From Promethearchaeum syntrophicum (GTDB lineage: Archaea > Asgardarchaeota > Lokiarchaeia > Sigyniarchaeales > Promethearchaeaceae): a stretch of DNA of 32,000 nt. The notes beneath the pieces were generated by a model. That model did no database searches, was not told the DNA's origin, and worked only from the letters and a program-made list of their open reading frames with translations. Below are positions 22,139 to 28,949 of the stretch, piece by piece. A program made the translations under genes and the position numbers. Every line of letters begins with the position of its first letter. Positions within the stretch are counted from its first letter, which is position 1. The stretch lies in NCBI RefSeq assembly GCF_008000775.2, contig NZ_CP042905.2, positions 3,450,001 to 3,482,000 of the forward strand, given 5' to 3'.

Positions 22139-25100
22139 TTATTTAAACTCATTAATAACTAAATATAATTCCTCATCTGTAAATCCGAGTAAATCGATAG
22201 CCGAACCCCTGCAACTCGAAACACAAGCACCACACCCTTTACATAATCCAGAATTAATTTCAACAACCATTTTTTCTTCATCCATTTTGATTGCACTATA
22301 GGCACAAGTCTCTATACATAACCCACAACCGCTGCATTTGGAAATATCAACATGGGCAACTATTCCTTCAGATTCAATTTCATCTTTGCTTAGATAGGTT
22401 GAAGCTCGAGATACTACCGCATTAGCTTGCATGATAGATTCATCAATCGATCGAGGAGAATGAGCAAGACCACATACAAAGACTCCGGCAGTTGCAAAAT
22501 CAACAGGTCTCAATTTAACATGAGCTTCTAAGAAAAATTTATCATCATTTAATGGAACTTTTAACATTGGAGCTAAAATTTCGTTAGATTCATATGGAGG
22601 ATGAATTCCTACACTCAACACTAACAGATCCAGATCAATATCTATCTTTCCAATGTTTGGGGAATCGAGATGAATAACTAGATTCTTCCCTTTTTTTTCT
22701 AATTCAGGAGGTAAATCTTGATCAAATCTAATAAACATAACTCCTTTACTTCTTGCTTCCCGATAATATTTCTCTTTAAGACCGTATGTTCTAATATCCC
22801 GAAATAGAACAATAATTTCTTTCTCCGGATAAAGATCTTTTAGCTTTATAGAGTTTTTAACGGCTTCTGCACAACAAACTCTGCTACAATAGGGATTTTC
22901 ATCATTTCTGGAGCCGATACATTGAATCATTACAATTTTATTGACTTTTTCATCGAGTTCATTCTCGAAAAGCATTTTTTCGAAATCTATTTGAGTAACA
23001 ACTCTTGGATCTTTGGTATACAAATATTCTGTTGGTTGGTATTGTTCACCACCAGTGGCAACTACAATGATTCCATGTTCAAGGGTATTTTCTTCACTTT
23101 CTTTATTTTCCATCGATTTTAATGTAGTTTCAAAATTTCCTACAAAACCTTCGATTGTATCAATTTCTGTGTCCAAAAAGATCTTAAGGTTCTCATTATT
23201 CTTCGCATTTTTAACGATATTAGATAAATATTCTTGTACATTATTACCTTCGATTGTAGCATATATATTTTTGGCATGTCCGCCCAATTCTGCGGTTTTT
23301 TCAACCAAATATGTCATAAAACCTTGTTCAGCAAAGCCTAAAGCTGCAGTTAATCCAGAAATTCCTCCACCAATAACTAGAACATTATGATTCATATCTA
23401 AAATGGTTCTTTGCAGAGGTTCTATTTTATTTGCTTTACTCACGGCCATTCGAACTAAATCTTTTGATTTTGCGGTTGCAGCAACAGGCTCATGCATATG
23501 AACCCAACTGCATTGATCTCGAATATTTGCCATTTCAAATAGATAAGGGTTTAATCCCGCTTCTCTTATCGTTTCTTGGAATAGTGGTTCATGGGTTCTC
23601 GGTGTGCATGATGCAACTATAACTCGGTTTAAATTATTCTCTTTTATGGATTCAACAATTTTGGTTTGCGTGTCTGCTGAGCAAGTGTAAAGGTTTCTCT
23701 CTGCATATTCTACATTCTCCAAAGTTTCCGCATATTTCACTACGTCTGGAACGTCTACATAACCGCCTATATTAACACCACAATGGCAAACAAAAACTCC
23801 GATTCGTGGAGGTTGTCCTTCGACATTGATCTCTGGAGGGTATTCTTTCTTAGTTACCAAAGAATTTCGTACTGAATGCAATAAAATATTTGCATGTGCT
23901 GCACTTGCGCTAGCTTGAATAACACTTTCAGGAATATCTTTTGGAGCTGCAAAGGCACCACATACAAAAATTCCTGGTTTTGAGGTTTTACTCGGTGTAA
24001 AAGTGTCGGTTTGGCAAAAATTGTATTCATTTAATTCAAAACCAAAAATCTTGCTTAATTTAATAGCGTCATCTGGAGGATTTAACCCTACGCTTAACAC
24101 AACCATATTATATTCTTCAGTAATCAAAGATCCGTTTTCAGATTCATATGATAAAATCAGGTTTTTATTATCCGGATTTTCTTCTATGGATGAAATCCGG
24201 CTCCGGATATATTTTATCCCATATTCATCTTGAGCGCGTATAATATATTTATCAAAATCTTTTCCATATGCCCTAATATCCATCGTAAAAATGGTGGGAT
24301 TTACTTGATGTTGATGTTCTTTGGCAATTACAGCCTCTTTGGCGGTATACATGCAACAAACTGAAGAACAATAAGGTTTAGCGTGATGGATGTCCCTTGA
24401 GCCAATACATTGAAGAAACGCTACTTTTTCGGGAATATCTCCATCAGAGGGTCGTAAGACCATTCCGGTATACGGTCCACTTGCACTTAAAATTCTTTCA
24501 AACTCAATACTCGATACAACATTTGGATATTTTCCATAACCATAAACTTGTAAAGGTGCAGGATCAAATTCATCAAAACCCGGAGCTAGAATAATAGCTC
24601 CTACATTAATAGTTATTTCTTCATCTTGTTGGAAATATTCAACTGCATGAGCCTTACAAACGGCTTCGCATATTCCACAACCGATACATTTATCTCTATT
24701 AATGGAAAAGACAAGAGGAACAGATTGAGGGTATTTAACAAATGCTGCACTATTAATAACCATATTTTCATTATAGATATCAATACCCTCTACAGGACAT
24801 TGTTGCCCACAAATACCACACCCTGTACATTTCTCACTATTTATGAATAATGCTTTTTTCAATATGTTTACGTTGAAATTTCCCGCTTCTCCATCAAGTT
24901 TAACTATATTCGCGTTGATTAAAAGTTCGATATTTGGATGTCTTCCCGCTTCTACGAGTTTAGGGGAAAGAATGCACATTGAACAATCATTTGTTGGAAA
25001 AGTTTTATCCAGCTGTGACATAACTCCTCCAATACCTGTAGTTTTTTCAGATACATATACTTTATAGCCTGAATCAGCTAAATCCAGAGCTGATTGAATT

Positions 25101-25147
25101 CCAGCAATACCGCCACCAATGACTAATACAGCACCAATCTTTTCCAT
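22139..25147 (-). CDS. hdrA: Fused double-module HdrA (heterodisulfide reductase subunit A-like flavoprotein), 1002 aa
   Basis: The N-half has VIGGGIAGIQSA, FPTNDCSMCILSPK, an inserted ferredoxin (CTGCGICGQQCP, CIGCGICEAVC) and QCIGSRD...YCSSVCC. A linker occupies about aa 420-447 (nt 23807-23890). The C-half has IGVFVCHCGVNIGG, ASCTPRTHEPLF, VIGGGISGLTAA, QCIGSRN..YCSRVCC and a C-terminal ferredoxin (CSGCGLCIETC, CKGCGACVSSC). Confidence 0.9.
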   Translation of the reverse strand: MEKIGAVLVIGGGIAGIQSALDLADSGYKVYVSEKTTGIGGVMSQLDKTFPTNDCSMCILSPKLVEAGRHPNIELLINANIVKLDGEAGNFNVNILKKALFINSEKCTGCGICGQQCPVEGIDIYNENMVINSAAFVKYPQSVPLVFSINRDKCIGCGICEAVCKAHAVEYFQQDEEITINVGAIILAPGFDEFDPAPLQVYGYGKYPNVVSSIEFERILSASGPYTGMVLRPSDGDIPEKVAFLQCIGSRDIHHAKPYCSSVCCMYTAKEAVIAKEHQHQVNPTIFTMDIRAYGKDFDKYIIRAQDEYGIKYIRSRISSIEENPDNKNLILSYESENGSLITEEYNMVVLSVGLNPPDDAIKLSKIFGFELNEYNFCQTDTFTPSKTSKPGIFVCGAFAAPKDIPESVIQASASAAHANILLHSVRNSLVTKKEYPPEINVEGQPPRIGVFVCHCGVNIGGYVDVPDVVKYAETLENVEYAERNLYTCSADTQTKIVESIKENNLNRVIVASCTPRTHEPLFQETIREAGLNPYLFEMANIRDQCSWVHMHEPVAATAKSKDLVRMAVSKANKIEPLQRTILDMNHNVLVIGGGISGLTAALGFAEQGFMTYLVEKTAELGGHAKNIYATIEGNNVQEYLSNIVKNAKNNENLKIFLDTEIDTIEGFVGNFETTLKSMENKESEENTLEHGIIVVATGGEQYQPTEYLYTKDPRVVTQIDFEKMLFENELDEKVNKIVMIQCIGSRNDENPYCSRVCCAEAVKNSIKLKDLYPEKEIIVLFRDIRTYGLKEKYYREARSKGVMFIRFDQDLPPELEKKGKNLVIHLDSPNIGKIDIDLDLLVLSVGIHPPYESNEILAPMLKVPLNDDKFFLEAHVKLRPVDFATAGVFVCGLAHSPRSIDESIMQANAVVSRASTYLSKDEIESEGIVAHVDISKCSGCGLCIETCAYSAIKMDEEKMVVEINSGLCKGCGACVSSCRGSAIDLLGFTDEELYLVINEFK

Positions 25148-27628: not shown

Positions 27629-28949
27629 GATGTTCACCTTTTTGCATTTGAATATATTCTGAAACCTTAGCAGCAGCCCCAGAAGCATTAATAACCGAAT
27701 GTGGAATATCCATTGGGCCTAAACACGATCCACAAGCGAAAATTCCAGGAATGTTCGTATTTACTGGATGATCAATTGAACTTTTTACAAAATCAAATTC
27801 ATCCTGCTCAACACCTAACACTTTAGCTAATTTATTATGATTTCTAGTTGGGATCATCGCGCAAGCTAATATTACAAGACCGACCTTTTTTGTTTGGACT
27901 TCAAATGTATCTAAATTTTCATAATGTAATATCGGATTATCATTCTCATCAATCGTTATTTCAGCAATCTTACCCCTTATATATTTCACACCATATTCAT
28001 CCTTCGCTCGTTTAATATATTTTTGAAAACCTTTTCCCCCAGCACGAAGATCTATATAAAATATTGTTGAATTCATCTCTTCATCATGTTCTCTTGAAAG
28101 AATTGCATGTTTAGTTGAATAGGTACAACATATTGAAGAACAATAAGAATTCGTATTTACGTCTCTGGAACCCACACATTGAACGAAAGCTATAGTTTTA
28201 GGATGTTTATTATCTGATAATCTTGTTATATGCCCCTCGGTTGGTCCTGAAGCGCTAATCATTCTTTCATATTCTAAACCAGTTATAACATTTTTATATT
28301 TTTTATATCCATAAATATGCAGAGGAGTAGGATCATACTGATTTGAACCACTGGCCATTATAATAGCATCAGAGTTTAAGGTATAGTTAGTATCTGTTTG
28401 AGTAAAATCAATAGCATCCTTTGGACAAACATCTTGGCAAAAACCACATACTTTTTTTTCCTTATTCTTATTTTTTAAATATAGACATTTCTCCTTATCA
28501 ATTGCCATAACTGCGGGAACACCTTGAAGATAATAAAGATAGATAGCTTTTCTTTTACGCATTTTCATATCGAATACATCTAGCACTTTTGAAGGACATT
28601 TTTGAACACAAAGACCACAATTAATGCATTTTTCCTCATTAACAAAACGTGCTTTTTTTAGCACATTTACTATGAAACCATCCTTTTTCTTTGATATTTC
28701 TTGAACTTGAGTTAAACTATGTATCTTAACATTCGGGTGGCGGAAACAATCTGAGAGTTTTGGGGCTAAAATACAGATGGAGCAATCGTTAGTTGGAAGA
28801 GTTTTATCCAGTTGAGCCATCCTCCCCCCAATGCAGGGTTCTTGTTCTATTAAATCCACATGATACCCCATATCACCTAAATCAAGGGATGATTGAATTC
28901 CCGCAATCCCACCACCTATAACCATCACTTTTTTAACATTTTCTTTCAA
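27621..28949 (-). CDS. hdrA: HdrA module A: FAD domain with inserted ferredoxin only (no N-terminal Fe-S domain, no C-terminal ferredoxin)
   Basis: TTG start 28949 is preceded by AAGGAGG at 9-nt spacing. Motifs: VIGGGIAGIQSS, LPTNDCSICILAPK, CINCGLCVQKCP, CGFCQDVCP, QCVGSRD...YCSSICC. The TGA stop overlaps the next start by 8 nt (ATGGATGA). Confidence 0.85.
   Translation of the reverse strand: MKENVKKVMVIGGGIAGIQSSLDLGDMGYHVDLIEQEPCIGGRMAQLDKTLPTNDCSICILAPKLSDCFRHPNVKIHSLTQVQEISKKKDGFIVNVLKKARFVNEEKCINCGLCVQKCPSKVLDVFDMKMRKRKAIYLYYLQGVPAVMAIDKEKCLYLKNKNKEKKVCGFCQDVCPKDAIDFTQTDTNYTLNSDAIIMASGSNQYDPTPLHIYGYKKYKNVITGLEYERMISASGPTEGHITRLSDNKHPKTIAFVQCVGSRDVNTNSYCSSICCTYSTKHAILSREHDEEMNSTIFYIDLRAGGKGFQKYIKRAKDEYGVKYIRGKIAEITIDENDNPILHYENLDTFEVQTKKVGLVILACAMIPTRNHNKLAKVLGVEQDEFDFVKSSIDHPVNTNIPGIFACGSCLGPMDIPHSVINASGAAAKVSEYIQMQKGEHHG

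What the first reader, a model, noticed from the sequence alone, without database searches (positions are those of the whole stretch)
22139..28949. HdrA present once as two overlapping genes and once as a fused 1002-aa protein: a pseudo-dimer with complementary domain loss
Canonical methanogen HdrA has an N-terminal Fe-S domain, an FAD domain with an inserted ferredoxin, and a C-terminal ferredoxin, and it works as a homodimer (established knowledge). Here module A (27621-28949) keeps only the FAD domain plus inserted ferredoxin (TNDCSICILAPK, CINCGLCVQKCP). Module B (25958-27628) keeps the N-terminal domain (VFICHCGTNI), an FAD domain with no inserted ferredoxin (no Cys in that interval) and the C-terminal ferredoxin. 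The 1002-aa protein is exactly A+B, joined by a ~28-aa linker (nt 23807-23890). A+B therefore looks like an asymmetric HdrA dimer encoded either in two genes (8-nt overlap ATGGATGA) or in one chain. That would break the two-fold symmetry of the bifurcating core. I recall similar asymmetric or fused HdrA forms being discussed for methane-oxidising archaea but cannot verify that here. The split could also be a 1-nt frameshift artefact.
Basis: partly seen in the sequence, partly recalled or inferred. Interest (0 to 1): 0.65.

Follow-up and report, generated by a model that had tools for sequence, protein, structure and literature searches.

The report
Split and fused HdrA pseudo-dimers, side by side

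Summary
Module A (27621-28949) carries the FAD domain, the CxxC pair and the inserted ferredoxin. Module B (25958-27628) carries the N-terminal cluster domain, an FAD domain with no insert and no CxxC, and the C-terminal ferredoxin. The 1002-aa protein (22139-25147) is A, a 30-aa linker, then B, each half 45% identical to its split counterpart.

The frameshift alternative is rejected. Standalone A genes of about 430 aa are abundant. In 26 distinct loci, window included, the A|B junction takes every geometry: overlaps, gaps, all three relative frames and all three stop codons.

The pseudo-dimer reading is supported. All 84 intact A modules keep the CxxC pair, all eight inserted-ferredoxin Cys and the Lys/Glu flavin hallmarks. 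None of 79 B modules has the CxxC pair. The A and B trees are congruent. The AlphaFold2 model has pTM 0.85.

It is not new. Chadwick 2022 described tandem and fused HdrA with this complementarity. A 2025 survey named the fused form "type II HdrA". A 2026 cryo-EM preprint shows that BamE is such a fused dimer with one bifurcating and one structural FAD.

The conserved 10-gene Asgard operon (hdrCB, A, B, mvhD-wHTH, fused hdrA, flxDCBA) is a new member of a known kind. Interest is modest.

The parts
29897..30466 (-). hdrC-like gene (189 aa, two [4Fe-4S] motifs)
   Evidence: Pfam Fer4_8 and related families. NCBIfam CoB_CoM_SS_C 109 bits, below the curated cut-off. First gene of the operon.
28977..29897 (-). 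hdrB-like gene (306 aa, two CCG domains)
   Evidence: Pfam CCG with 2 stretches, E=2e-27. NCBIfam CoB_CoM_SS_B 293 bits, below the cut-off of 345.
27621..28949 (-). HdrA module A (442 aa): TrxR-like FAD domain with the CxxC pair (C56/C59), an inserted 2x[4Fe-4S] ferredoxin (C108-118; C155/168/171/175), the TrxR cluster Cys (258/270/274/275), and E228/K280 (equivalent to E356/K409). It has no N-terminal domain and no C-terminal ferredoxin.
   Evidence: 120 of the best 120 homologues are standalone proteins of 388-463 aa.
27621..27628 (-). A/B junction: the 8-nt overlap ATGGATGA (B start codon ATG, A stop codon TGA). B is in the +1 frame relative to A.
   Evidence: The same overlap occurs in L003 and L012, and other geometries occur in the remaining split pairs of the 26 distinct loci tabulated.
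25958..27628 (-). HdrA module B (556 aa): N-terminal cluster domain (C11/13/46/71/103), a second TrxR-like FAD domain with its 4-Cys cluster (294/305/309/310) but no CxxC pair and no inserted ferredoxin, and a C-terminal 2x[4Fe-4S] ferredoxin (487-497; 517-527).
25159..25965 (-). MvhD-like [2Fe-2S] adaptor (residues 16-146) with a C-terminal extension of about 120 aa that is a winged-helix domain (about nt 25162-25533). It overlaps the end of B by 8 nt.
   Evidence: Pfam FlpD E=1e-51. 5odc_D E=1.5e-46 over residues 16-146. A profile of 20 extensions hits ArsR-type wHTH structures (1uly_A E=7e-7).
23897..25147 (-). Fused HdrA, A half (residues 1-417): CxxC C55/C58, inserted-ferredoxin Cys 107-117 and 154-164, TrxR cluster Cys 247/260/264/265.
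   Evidence: Foldseek against the HdrA rigid core 8rwn_A gives TM 0.91 (normalised to the target) and 46% identity.
23807..23896 (-). Linker of the fused protein (residues 418-447).
   Evidence: It lies between the alignment ends. The coil segment 427-448 has block pLDDT of about 87-90 over residues 431-450.
22139..23806 (-). Fused HdrA, B half (residues 448-1002): N-terminal domain Cys 454/456/489/514/546, second TrxR cluster Cys 743/754/758/759, C-terminal ferredoxin Cys 938-948 and 969-979. No CxxC pair and no insert.
   Evidence: Foldseek against 5odc_A gives 651 aligned columns, TM 0.75 (normalised to the target) and 36% identity.
21637..22152 (-). Short MvhD/FlxD-like adaptor (171 aa). 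It overlaps the end of the fused hdrA by 14 nt.
   Evidence: Pfam FlpD E=7e-54.
20655..21695 (-). FlxC-like Fe-S protein (346 aa).
   Evidence: Pfam Fer4 families. It keeps a conserved position after the short MvhD in L001, L003, L011, L074, L082 and others.
19531..20637 (-). FlxB-like Fe-S protein (368 aa), resembling HydB/AsrA.
   Evidence: Pfam Fer4_22 E=8e-33. NCBIfam sulfhyd_HydB and sulfite_red_A, both below the cut-off.
18655..19515 (-). FlxA-like NAD(P)H-binding flavoprotein with a [2Fe-2S] domain (286 aa), resembling HydG/AsrB.
   Evidence: Pfam NAD_binding_1 and DHODB_Fe-S_bind. NCBIfam sulfite_red_B and sulfhyd_HydG, both below the cut-off.

Best explanation
Both the two-gene pair (A+B) and the 1002-aa chain are obligate asymmetric HdrA pseudo-dimers. 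Each assembles one complete flavin-based electron-bifurcation unit, where a homodimer would carry two.

Module A is the rigid catalytic core. It holds the FAD with the Lys/Glu hallmarks, the adjacent CxxC pair, the TrxR-domain [4Fe-4S] cluster that leads to HdrC/HdrB, and the inserted ferredoxin that passes the low-potential electron outwards.

Module B supplies what the partner protomer supplies in a canonical homodimer: the mobile arm. This arm consists of the N-terminal 'shuttle' cluster domain, the C-terminal ferredoxin and the docking site for MvhD. It is carried on a second FAD-binding TrxR domain that sits at no branching point and probably acts as a scaffold. The cofactor total is seven [4Fe-4S] clusters and two FAD.

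In this operon the split pair comes with HdrCB and an MvhD-winged-helix adaptor. The fused paralogue comes with a short MvhD and FlxCBA, an NAD(P)H-oxidising module. Together this is an Flx-Hdr-type NAD(P)H / ferredoxin / disulfide bifurcating or confurcating system.

Shown here: the domain content, the ligand complementarity and its conservation, the reality of the split, the co-evolution of A and B, and the operon conservation.

Inferred: the physical pairing, which flavin bifurcates, the direction of electron flow, and the identity of the substrates.
For: Sequence and structure:
- Domain mapping onto solved HdrA and the Cys inventory.
- A modules (84 intact; 79 from split or fused pairs plus 5 canonical HdrA cores): CxxC 84/84, inserted-ferredoxin Cys 84/84, E356 and K409 equivalents 84/84.
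- B modules (n=79): four N-terminal-domain Cys 79/79, GxGxxG 79/79, TrxR cluster Cys 79/79, CxxC 0/79, K409 equivalent 67/79, E356 equivalent 70/79.
- In 22 further relatives the second CxxC position is an in-frame TGA, read as selenocysteine, which marks that site in module A as catalytically important (HdrA is a known Asgard selenoprotein, PMC11227280).
- The A and B trees are congruent: split forms make one clade and fused forms make others.
- A/B and B/mvhD each overlap by 8 nt, and all ten genes are tightly packed.
- AlphaFold2 model of the fused chain: pTM 0.85, mean pLDDT 80.7.
- Foldseek: one half matches the 428-residue rigid HdrA core (8rwn_A, TM 0.91). The other half matches full-length HdrA (5odc_A, TM 0.75 over 651 columns).

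Literature:
- Chadwick 2022 describes N-terminal-domain/Cys197 complementarity in tandem and fused HdrA.
- In methanogen Hdr, the mobile arm of one protomer serves the FAD', the Cys pair, HA4' and HA5'/HA6' of the other (PMC13580544).
- Cryo-EM of BamE shows a fused HdrA dimer. The N-terminal TrxR1 holds the bifurcating FAD (Lys280, Cys59-Cys62). The inserted ferredoxin holds E5/E6. TrxR2 holds a non-bifurcating FAD. BamF is an MvhD with a wHTH (bioRxiv 10.64898/2026.04.10.717634).
- The MvhD extension in this window is a wHTH.
- The same 10-gene order is found in L001, L003, L011 and L074.
Against: - No multimer prediction, coordinates or contact map could be obtained, so the A:B interface and the pseudo-two-fold geometry are not shown directly.
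- Module B in this window keeps both flavin hallmark residues (K315 and E276; fused K764). BamE has Gln at this position. A redox role for the second FAD is therefore not excluded, and the 2025 survey (PMC12054007) reads this as a possible second bifurcation site.
- There is only one hdrBC pair for two pseudo-dimers, so the composition of the complexes is unknown.
- No CoM/CoB heterodisulfide is expected in Asgard archaea, so the high-potential acceptor is unknown.
- The trees are NJ trees without support values.
Confidence: 0.8

Rival explanations
1. The A|B split is a sequencing or assembly frameshift, and the locus really carries two fused paralogues (a simple tandem duplication).
For: B lies in the +1 frame relative to A and the overlap is only 8 nt, so a single indel could join them. 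Some lineages have a fused gene in the slot before the MvhD-wHTH gene (L050, L057, L073, L068, L018).
Against: The two-gene state is present in independent assemblies at 92% and 77% identity, with different junction sequences. The best 120 homologues of A are all standalone proteins of 388-463 aa from Loki-, Hel- and Thorarchaeota and Bathyarchaeia. Across 26 distinct loci, window included, the junctions show overlaps of -17 to -1, abutment, and gaps of +1 to +33. They use all three relative frames and the stops TGA, TAA and TAG, and several have SD-like motifs before the B start. Split A and split B each form their own clade, apart from the fused forms.
Confidence: 0.02
2. Both flavins are catalytic, so the pseudo-dimer performs two bifurcation or confurcation reactions, or uses module B's FAD as a second two-electron entry site.
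For: Both TrxR domains keep GxGxxG, the 4-Cys cluster and the K409 and E356 equivalents in this window (positions; sequences). The 2025 survey proposes this for type II HdrA.
Against: B's flavin has no CxxC pair, no inserted ferredoxin of its own and no partner arm, because A lacks the N-terminal and C-terminal domains. The hallmark residues are relaxed only in B (K 67/79, E 70/79, against 84/84 in A). In the only structure of a fused form, the second FAD is not at a branching point and is judged structural.
Confidence: 0.13
3. A and B are not partners. A works as a stand-alone minimal HdrA (class A6) with HdrBC, and B works separately, for example as a homodimer with MvhD.
For: Class A6-type HdrA proteins are common on their own in methane-metabolising archaea. 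sHdrA (6tjr) is a functional minimal HdrA-like protein.
Against: In my sample every split A of this clade is immediately followed by a B (25 pairs), often with overlapping start and stop codons. The A and B phylogenies are congruent. The same two modules are covalently joined in 89 fused genes, always in the order A then B. A B homodimer would have N-terminal-domain clusters with no partner CxxC (0/79).
Confidence: 0.05

Closest known systems
BamE of the class II benzoyl-CoA reductase of Geobacter metallireducens (cryo-EM, bioRxiv 10.64898/2026.04.10.717634), with BamD and BamF
   Same: - Fused HdrA dimer in the same A-then-B order: N-terminal TrxR1 with a Cys-x-x-Cys pair (Cys59/62; here Cys55/58) and an inserted two-cluster ferredoxin.
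- A second TrxR with its own cluster and FAD, and a C-terminal two-cluster ferredoxin.
- Seven [4Fe-4S] clusters and two FAD.
- An MvhD-type adaptor lengthened by more than 100 aa with a winged helix (BamF), matched here by the 268-aa MvhD-wHTH.
   Different: - BamE's second FAD site has Gln768, whereas the window keeps Lys in both halves.
- BamD is a fused HdrBC-like subunit, whereas hdrC and hdrB are separate genes here.
- The partners are BamBC and BamGHI there, and Flx-like proteins here.
- One of the two Asgard copies is split into two genes.
- No direct sequence comparison with BamE was possible, because its chains are not in the PDB copies searched.
Tandem (HdrA5/6, HdrA12/13) and fused (HdrA3/4) HdrA of ANME archaea, and the Moorella MetFV-Hdr HdrA (Chadwick et al. 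2022, PMC9012536)
   Same: The same idea and the same evidence type. [quoted passage not shown] The paper proposes heterodimers, or 'their own heterodimeric partners', that break the two-fold symmetry.
   Different: The paper's text gives the fused ANME forms as N-terminal-domain unit first and Cys197 unit second. The window and all 89 fused genes in my sample, including a Methanoperedens (L022), have the Cys197 unit first. The lineage (Asgard) and the partners (Flx) also differ.
'Type II HdrA' and type I classes A6 and A12 (Microbiol Spectr 2025, PMC12054007)
   Same: Type II is defined as a fusion of two different type I classes with two TrxR domains, both retaining K409 and E356. Class A6 lacks the N-terminal cluster and the C-terminal ferredoxin, as module A does.
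   Different: That survey covered only methane- and alkane-metabolising archaea and does not mention Asgard. It interprets the two flavins as two possible bifurcation sites. It does not describe an operon with both the split and the fused state.
FlxABCD-HdrABC of Desulfovibrio vulgaris and syntrophs
   Same: The gene set hdrC, hdrB, hdrA, flxD (MvhD-like), flxC, flxB and flxA (NAD(P)H-binding) forms one cluster. Imachi et al. 2020 list FlxABCD-HdrABC among Asgard enzymes. In Archaeoglobi and in Desulfobacterota loci, the Flx-linked HdrA in my sample is the fused type (L082, L061, L062, L069).
   Different: The Asgard operon carries an extra A, B, MvhD-wHTH set inserted between hdrCB and the Flx-linked fused hdrA. 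Biochemistry (NADH oxidation, the disulfide acceptor) is untested here.
Canonical methanogen HdrA homodimer (5odc, 8rvu, 7bkb)
   Same: All four domain types, all cluster ligands, and K409, E356 and the CxxC pair are found across A+B. Sequence E-values reach 1e-195. Foldseek TM scores are 0.75-0.91.
   Different: No single chain or module has all four domains. There is one set of N-terminal domain, insert, C-terminal ferredoxin and CxxC per pair where a homodimer has two, so the two-fold symmetry is lost.

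Membership tests
HdrA family (TrxR-like Fe-S flavoprotein of HdrABC-type complexes) | TrxR-like FAD domain with GxGxxG and the four-Cys [4Fe-4S] site (C386/C399/C403/C404 in 5odc numbering) | tested here: met
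   Present in A (258/270/274/275), B (294/305/309/310) and both halves of the fused chain.
HdrA family (TrxR-like Fe-S flavoprotein of HdrABC-type complexes) | Flavin-site Lys409 and Glu356 | tested here: met
   A has K280 and E228. B has K315 and E276. The fused chain has VCCMYTAK and VCCAEAVK.
HdrA family (TrxR-like Fe-S flavoprotein of HdrABC-type complexes) | Genomic association with hdrB (CCG domains), hdrC and an MvhD-type adaptor | tested here: met
HdrA family (TrxR-like Fe-S flavoprotein of HdrABC-type complexes) | Curated equivalog score for CoB-CoM heterodisulfide reductase HdrA (NCBIfam) | tested here: not met
   All scores are below the cut-offs (for example 984 against 1100 for HdrA2, and 718 against 1300). 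The proteins are therefore HdrA-family members, not assignable CoM-S-S-CoB reductases.
Canonical four-domain HdrA homodimer | N-terminal domain, TrxR domain with inserted ferredoxin, and C-terminal ferredoxin all in one protomer | tested here: not met
   A lacks the N-terminal and C-terminal domains. B lacks the insert and the CxxC pair.
Fused pseudo-dimeric HdrA (type II HdrA / BamE-like) | Two TrxR domains in one chain with complementary accessory domains (one N-terminal domain, one insert, one C-terminal ferredoxin, one CxxC pair) | tested here: met
   The 1002-aa protein meets this. 89 fused genes in the sample share the same order.
Fused pseudo-dimeric HdrA (type II HdrA / BamE-like) | The halves pack as an HdrA-like dimer | tested here: inconclusive
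   pTM 0.85 and the two classes of Foldseek match are consistent with this. No coordinates or PAE were available to superpose on the 5odc dimer or on BamE.
Fused pseudo-dimeric HdrA (type II HdrA / BamE-like) | The second FAD is non-bifurcating or structural (Gln in place of Lys in BamE) | tested here: inconclusive
   Lys is retained in the window. In the family the position is relaxed only in B (67/79 K, against 84/84 in A).
Tandem heterodimeric HdrA (Chadwick HdrA5/6-type; classes A6 + A12) | Adjacent genes, one with the N-terminal domain and no Cys197, the other with Cys197 and no N-terminal domain | tested here: met
Tandem heterodimeric HdrA (Chadwick HdrA5/6-type; classes A6 + A12) | Physical A:B heterodimer | not testable with these tools
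   Only indirect support is available: congruent trees, overlapping genes, and covalent fusion of the same modules in paralogues.
FlxABCD-HdrABC complex | FlxA (NAD(P)H-binding flavoprotein with [2Fe-2S]), FlxB and FlxC (Fe-S proteins) and FlxD (MvhD-like) encoded next to hdrABC | tested here: met
   The order is conserved in L001, L003, L011, L074 and L082.
FlxABCD-HdrABC complex | NADH-dependent reduction of ferredoxin and a disulfide | not testable with these tools
   No biochemistry was possible. Imachi 2020 only lists the complex for Asgard archaea.

The most novel reading that the evidence does not exclude
The split pair and the fused chain do not form two alternative enzymes. They form the two non-equivalent halves of one supercomplex, a hetero-'dimer of pseudo-dimers' analogous to the (BamE)2 core. 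One bifurcation unit is fed by FlxABCD/NAD(P)H, and the other is docked through the MvhD-winged-helix adaptor to a different partner. This would wire two flavin-based bifurcation or confurcation sites in series. Module B's FAD, which retains its Lys/Glu hallmarks in Asgard, could be redox-active as well.
Probability: 0.12. Interest if true: 0.6.

Novelty: new member of a known kind. Interest (0 to 1): 0.3.

Why it matters
HdrA is the flavin-based bifurcation core of methanogens and of many anaerobes. Asymmetric HdrA forms show that only one of the two symmetric electron paths is needed. The Asgard operon offers a natural control: the same pseudo-dimer occurs as two polypeptides and as one, side by side, in a lineage that has cultured relatives (Prometheoarchaeum). 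That makes questions about assembly, stoichiometry and the role of the second flavin experimentally approachable. It also refines the annotation 'HdrABC / FlxABCD-HdrABC' used in metabolic models of the archaeal ancestor of eukaryotes. It does not reveal a new principle.

Tried and rejected
- **Frameshift artefact.** Rejected.
- **Selenocysteine read-through of the TGA that ends module A.** The next in-frame codons are AAT TAG, so recoding would add two residues and would not join A to B. Rejected.
- **Recent tandem duplication as the origin of the split and fused copies.** They are only 45% identical and fall in different clades, so they are old paralogues.
- **The fused gene in the MvhD-wHTH slot of L050, L057 and L073 as an orthologue of the split pair.** The NJ trees instead pair those genes with the neighbouring fused gene of the same locus. 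The evidence is weak because the trees have no support values.
- **Single-sequence AlphaFold2 of the MvhD-wHTH protein.** Unusable (pLDDT 40.5). Pfam on the extension alone gave only sub-threshold wHTH hints. A profile search against PDB sequences then settled it.
- **BamE in the PDB copies.** Not found, so there was no direct comparison.
- **A multimer prediction of A+B.** Not possible with the tools.

Full report
**Observation**

The minus strand of the window carries ten tightly packed genes. In order of transcription they are:
- hdrC (30466-29897)
- hdrB (29897-28977)
- module A (28949-27621, 442 aa)
- module B (27628-25958, 556 aa)
- an MvhD-like gene of 268 aa (25965-25159)
- a 1002-aa HdrA (25147-22139)
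- a short MvhD (22152-21637)
- three Flx-like genes (21695-18655)

The A/B junction is the 8-nt overlap ATGGATGA, with B in the +1 frame and a GGTGA 6 nt upstream of its ATG. A aligns to residues 2-417 of the long protein (45% identity, E=6e-135). B aligns to residues 448-994 (45% identity, E=2e-161). A and B are only 22-29% identical to each other over the FAD domain.

**Domain content**

Against solved HdrA (5odc_A), the fused protein matches in three pieces:
- HdrA 3-136 (N-terminal domain) to fused 446-579
- HdrA 146-510 (FAD domain with inserted ferredoxin) to fused 7-370
- HdrA 513-643 to fused 867-995

Module B aligns to HdrA 1-238 and 377-649. Only 47 residues stand in place of HdrA 239-376, a region that includes the inserted ferredoxin.

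The cysteine inventory assigns the cofactor sites as follows:
- Module A has the CxxC pair (C56/C59, equivalent to Cys194/Cys197), eight inserted-ferredoxin Cys and the four TrxR-cluster Cys.
- Module B has the N-terminal-domain Cys, a second set of four TrxR-cluster Cys and eight C-terminal-ferredoxin Cys. It has no Cys between residues 104 and 293.

Per A+B this gives seven [4Fe-4S] sites and two FAD sites. The BamE cryo-EM preprint reports the same count, E1-E7.

**The split is real**

Independent assemblies at 92% (L003) and 77% (L001) identity have the same two genes, and L001 has a different junction. The best 120 database relatives of module A are all standalone proteins of 388-463 aa. 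They come from Lokiarchaeota/Promethearchaeota, Helarchaeota, Thorarchaeota and Bathyarchaeia.

I then scanned one genome per species with an A-family alignment. I classified all ORFs with domain probes cut from the window proteins. The split junctions I tabulated, from 26 distinct loci including the window, show overlaps of 17, 8, 4 and 1 nt, direct abutment, and gaps of 1 to 33 nt. They use all three relative frames and all three stop codons. Several have Shine-Dalgarno-like motifs before the B start. A frameshift artefact cannot produce this pattern. Selenocysteine read-through of A's TGA would add only two residues before a TAG.

**Distribution**

Of 83 loci:
- 73 carry at least one fused gene. 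There are 89 fused genes, all in the order A then B.
- 25 carry a split pair.
- 19 carry both states in one cluster.
- 6 carry a canonical four-domain HdrA.

The exact ten-gene order of the window recurs in L001, L003, L011 and L074, and partly in L006 and L010. In L005, L049 and L051 the fused gene is further fused to MvhD (1152-1163 aa). Split and fused genes together also occur in Bathyarchaeia (L004), Thermoplasmata (L046), Cloacimonadota (L009), Delongbacteria (L013), Eisenbacteria (L025) and Desulfobacterota (L036, L043, L052; also visible in the listing for L032 and L038). The best 120 relatives of the fused protein include proteins of about 1000 aa at 62-92% identity, named from six Asgard lineages.

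**Evidence that A and B work together**

The complementarity is a family trait. The A set comprises 84 intact modules, 79 from split or fused pairs and 5 canonical HdrA cores.
- A modules (n=84): CxxC pair 84/84, all eight inserted-ferredoxin Cys 84/84, Glu356 and Lys409 equivalents 84/84.
- B modules (n=79): first four N-terminal-domain Cys, GxGxxG and TrxR-cluster Cys all 79/79. None has the CxxC pair.
- The flavin hallmarks are relaxed only in B (Lys 67/79, Glu 70/79).

In 22 further relatives the second position of the CxxC pair is an in-frame TGA. I read this as selenocysteine, because HdrA is a known Asgard and methanogen selenoprotein (PMC11227280). NJ trees of the A and B modules are congruent. 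Split forms (Asgard, Bathyarchaeia, Thermoplasmata and some bacteria) form one clade, and the fused forms form others. These trees have no support values.

The window's split and fused copies are therefore old paralogues whose modules have evolved as pairs.

An AlphaFold2 model of the fused chain, built from a 50-sequence alignment, has mean pLDDT 80.7 and pTM 0.85. The coil part of the linker (residues 427-448) scores about 87-90 in the residue 431-450 blocks. Low confidence is confined mainly to cofactor loops. Foldseek finds two kinds of best match:
- Full-length HdrA chains (5odc_A: 651 columns, 36% identity, TM 0.75). I assign this match to the B half from its identity and length.
- The 428-residue rigid HdrA core as modelled in 8rwn_A (46% identity, TM 0.91). 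I assign this match to the A half.

I could not obtain coordinates, so the dimer-like packing is inferred and was not measured.

**Mechanism**

Recent cryo-EM work on methanogen Hdr (PMC13580544) describes how the two protomers cooperate. The mobile arm of one HdrA protomer carries MvhD and the N-terminal-domain 'shuttle' cluster. It serves the flavin, the conserved Cys pair, the TrxR cluster leading to HdrC/B, and the inserted ferredoxin of the other protomer.

Applied to this locus, module A is the catalytic core and module B donates the arm. The mirror-image path cannot exist, because A has no arm and B has no CxxC pair or insert. This matches the BamE structure. There the N-terminal TrxR1 holds the bifurcating FAD (Lys280, Cys59-Cys62), and the second FAD (Gln768) is judged structural.

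One difference is that the Asgard B modules keep the Lys and Glu. A redox role for the second flavin therefore remains possible, and the 2025 survey suggests exactly this for type II HdrA. I give that reading about 13%.

**Operon context**

The 268-aa MvhD has a C-terminal extension conserved in more than 20 loci. A profile of it hits ArsR-type winged-helix structures (1uly_A E=7e-7). This parallels BamF, an MvhD adaptor lengthened by a wHTH.

The last three genes resemble FlxC, FlxB (HydB/AsrA-like) and FlxA (HydG/AsrB-like, NAD(P)H-binding with a [2Fe-2S] domain). Imachi et al. 2020 list FlxABCD-HdrABC among Asgard enzymes. The locus therefore looks like an hdrCBA-flxDCBA cluster whose HdrA is the fused type, as in Archaeoglobi L082. 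An extra set of A, B and MvhD-wHTH sits between hdrCB and the fused gene. Whether the two pseudo-dimers form separate complexes or one complex is unknown. The disulfide substrate is also unknown.

**Novelty**

The concept is published.
- Chadwick et al. 2022 describe tandem and fused ANME HdrA, and the Moorella MetFV-Hdr HdrA. They report complementary N-terminal-domain/Cys197 loss, proposed heterodimers and broken two-fold symmetry.
- A 2025 survey names the fused form type II. It derives the form from the fusion of two type I classes, one of which (A6) has module A's domain content.
- The BamE cryo-EM preprint confirms the fused pseudo-dimer.

I found no description of this architecture for Asgard archaea, nor of the conserved operon with both states. 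The Asgard papers I read treat the genes simply as HdrABC or FlxABCD-HdrABC. I therefore file the finding as a new member of a known kind, of modest interest.

One discrepancy is worth noting. Chadwick's text gives the opposite domain order for ANME HdrA3/4, whereas every fused gene in my sample, including a Methanoperedens (L022), has the Cys197 unit first.

Noticed in passing
window 25159-25533 (C-terminal part of the 268-aa MvhD, minus strand); also L001, L003-L006, L009-L011, L018, L023, L035, L040, L042, L046, L049-L051, L057, L068, L073, L074: The MvhD that follows the split pair carries a conserved extension of about 120 aa. A profile of it matches ArsR-type winged-helix structures (1uly_A E=7e-7). 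This parallels BamF of the benzoyl-CoA reductase, where the wHTH is a protein-protein interface. A DNA-binding or redox-sensing role is not excluded.
   Followed up: partly
L009, L021, L027, L032, L034, L036-L040, L044, L045, L052, L055, L062, L066, L069, L072, L075, L076, L083 (A modules): The second Cys of the CxxC pair (the Cys197 equivalent) is an in-frame TGA (TNDCxx*) in 22 A modules from 21 loci. This is presumably selenocysteine. It truncates naive ORF calls by about 60 aa. The window has Cys at this position in both paralogues.
   Followed up: partly
L005 9315-, L049 11618-, L051 11624- (1152-1163 aa); L033, L078: In some Promethearchaeota the fused HdrA is further fused to MvhD, giving A-B-MvhD in one chain. 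In L031 and L012, B alone is fused to MvhD.
   Followed up: no
window 28425-28487 (module A residues 155-175): The second cluster motif of module A's inserted ferredoxin is CX12CX2CX3C. The fused paralogue has the usual CX2CX2CX3C. The widened spacing between the first two Cys is conserved, at shorter lengths, in the split-A family consensus.
   Followed up: no
L007 4146-4151, and also L013, L036, L051, L060, L074: In six split pairs A and B lie in the same reading frame, separated only by a stop codon and sometimes a short spacer (for example GCA TAA ATG in L007). Stop-codon read-through alone would recreate a fused chain there.
   Followed up: no
L014 (1450-aa ORF), L053 and L056 (1527-1539-aa ORFs): Some HdrA-like ORFs are much longer than the 1000-aa fused form. 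One of them hits TrxA, TrxB, TrxA and TrxB probes in series, so it may have three or more TrxR units or an inserted module.
   Followed up: no
PMC9012536 text versus L022 and all fused genes in the sample: Chadwick et al. describe ANME fused HdrA3/4 as having the N-terminal-domain unit first and the Cys197 unit second. All 89 fused genes I classified, including a Methanoperedens, have the opposite order. Either those ANME-1 forms are absent from my sample or the text has the order inverted.
   Followed up: partly
window 14060-14713 (+) and 11408-12097 (-): Two Snf7/ESCRT-III family genes lie in the window (Pfam E=3e-10 and 6e-13). This fits an Asgard origin. The closest locus is named Prometheoarchaeum_2 (L003, 92% identity for the fused HdrA).
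   Followed up: no
window 7414-10059 (-) and 4750-7251 (-): Two large adjacent ORFs (881 and 833 aa) have no Pfam match at E<=1e-5.
   Followed up: no
window 21637-21695: The listed FlxC-like ORF start (21695) overlaps the end of the short MvhD gene by 59 nt. L003's gene call is 325 aa against 346 aa here, so the true start is probably further downstream.
   Followed up: no
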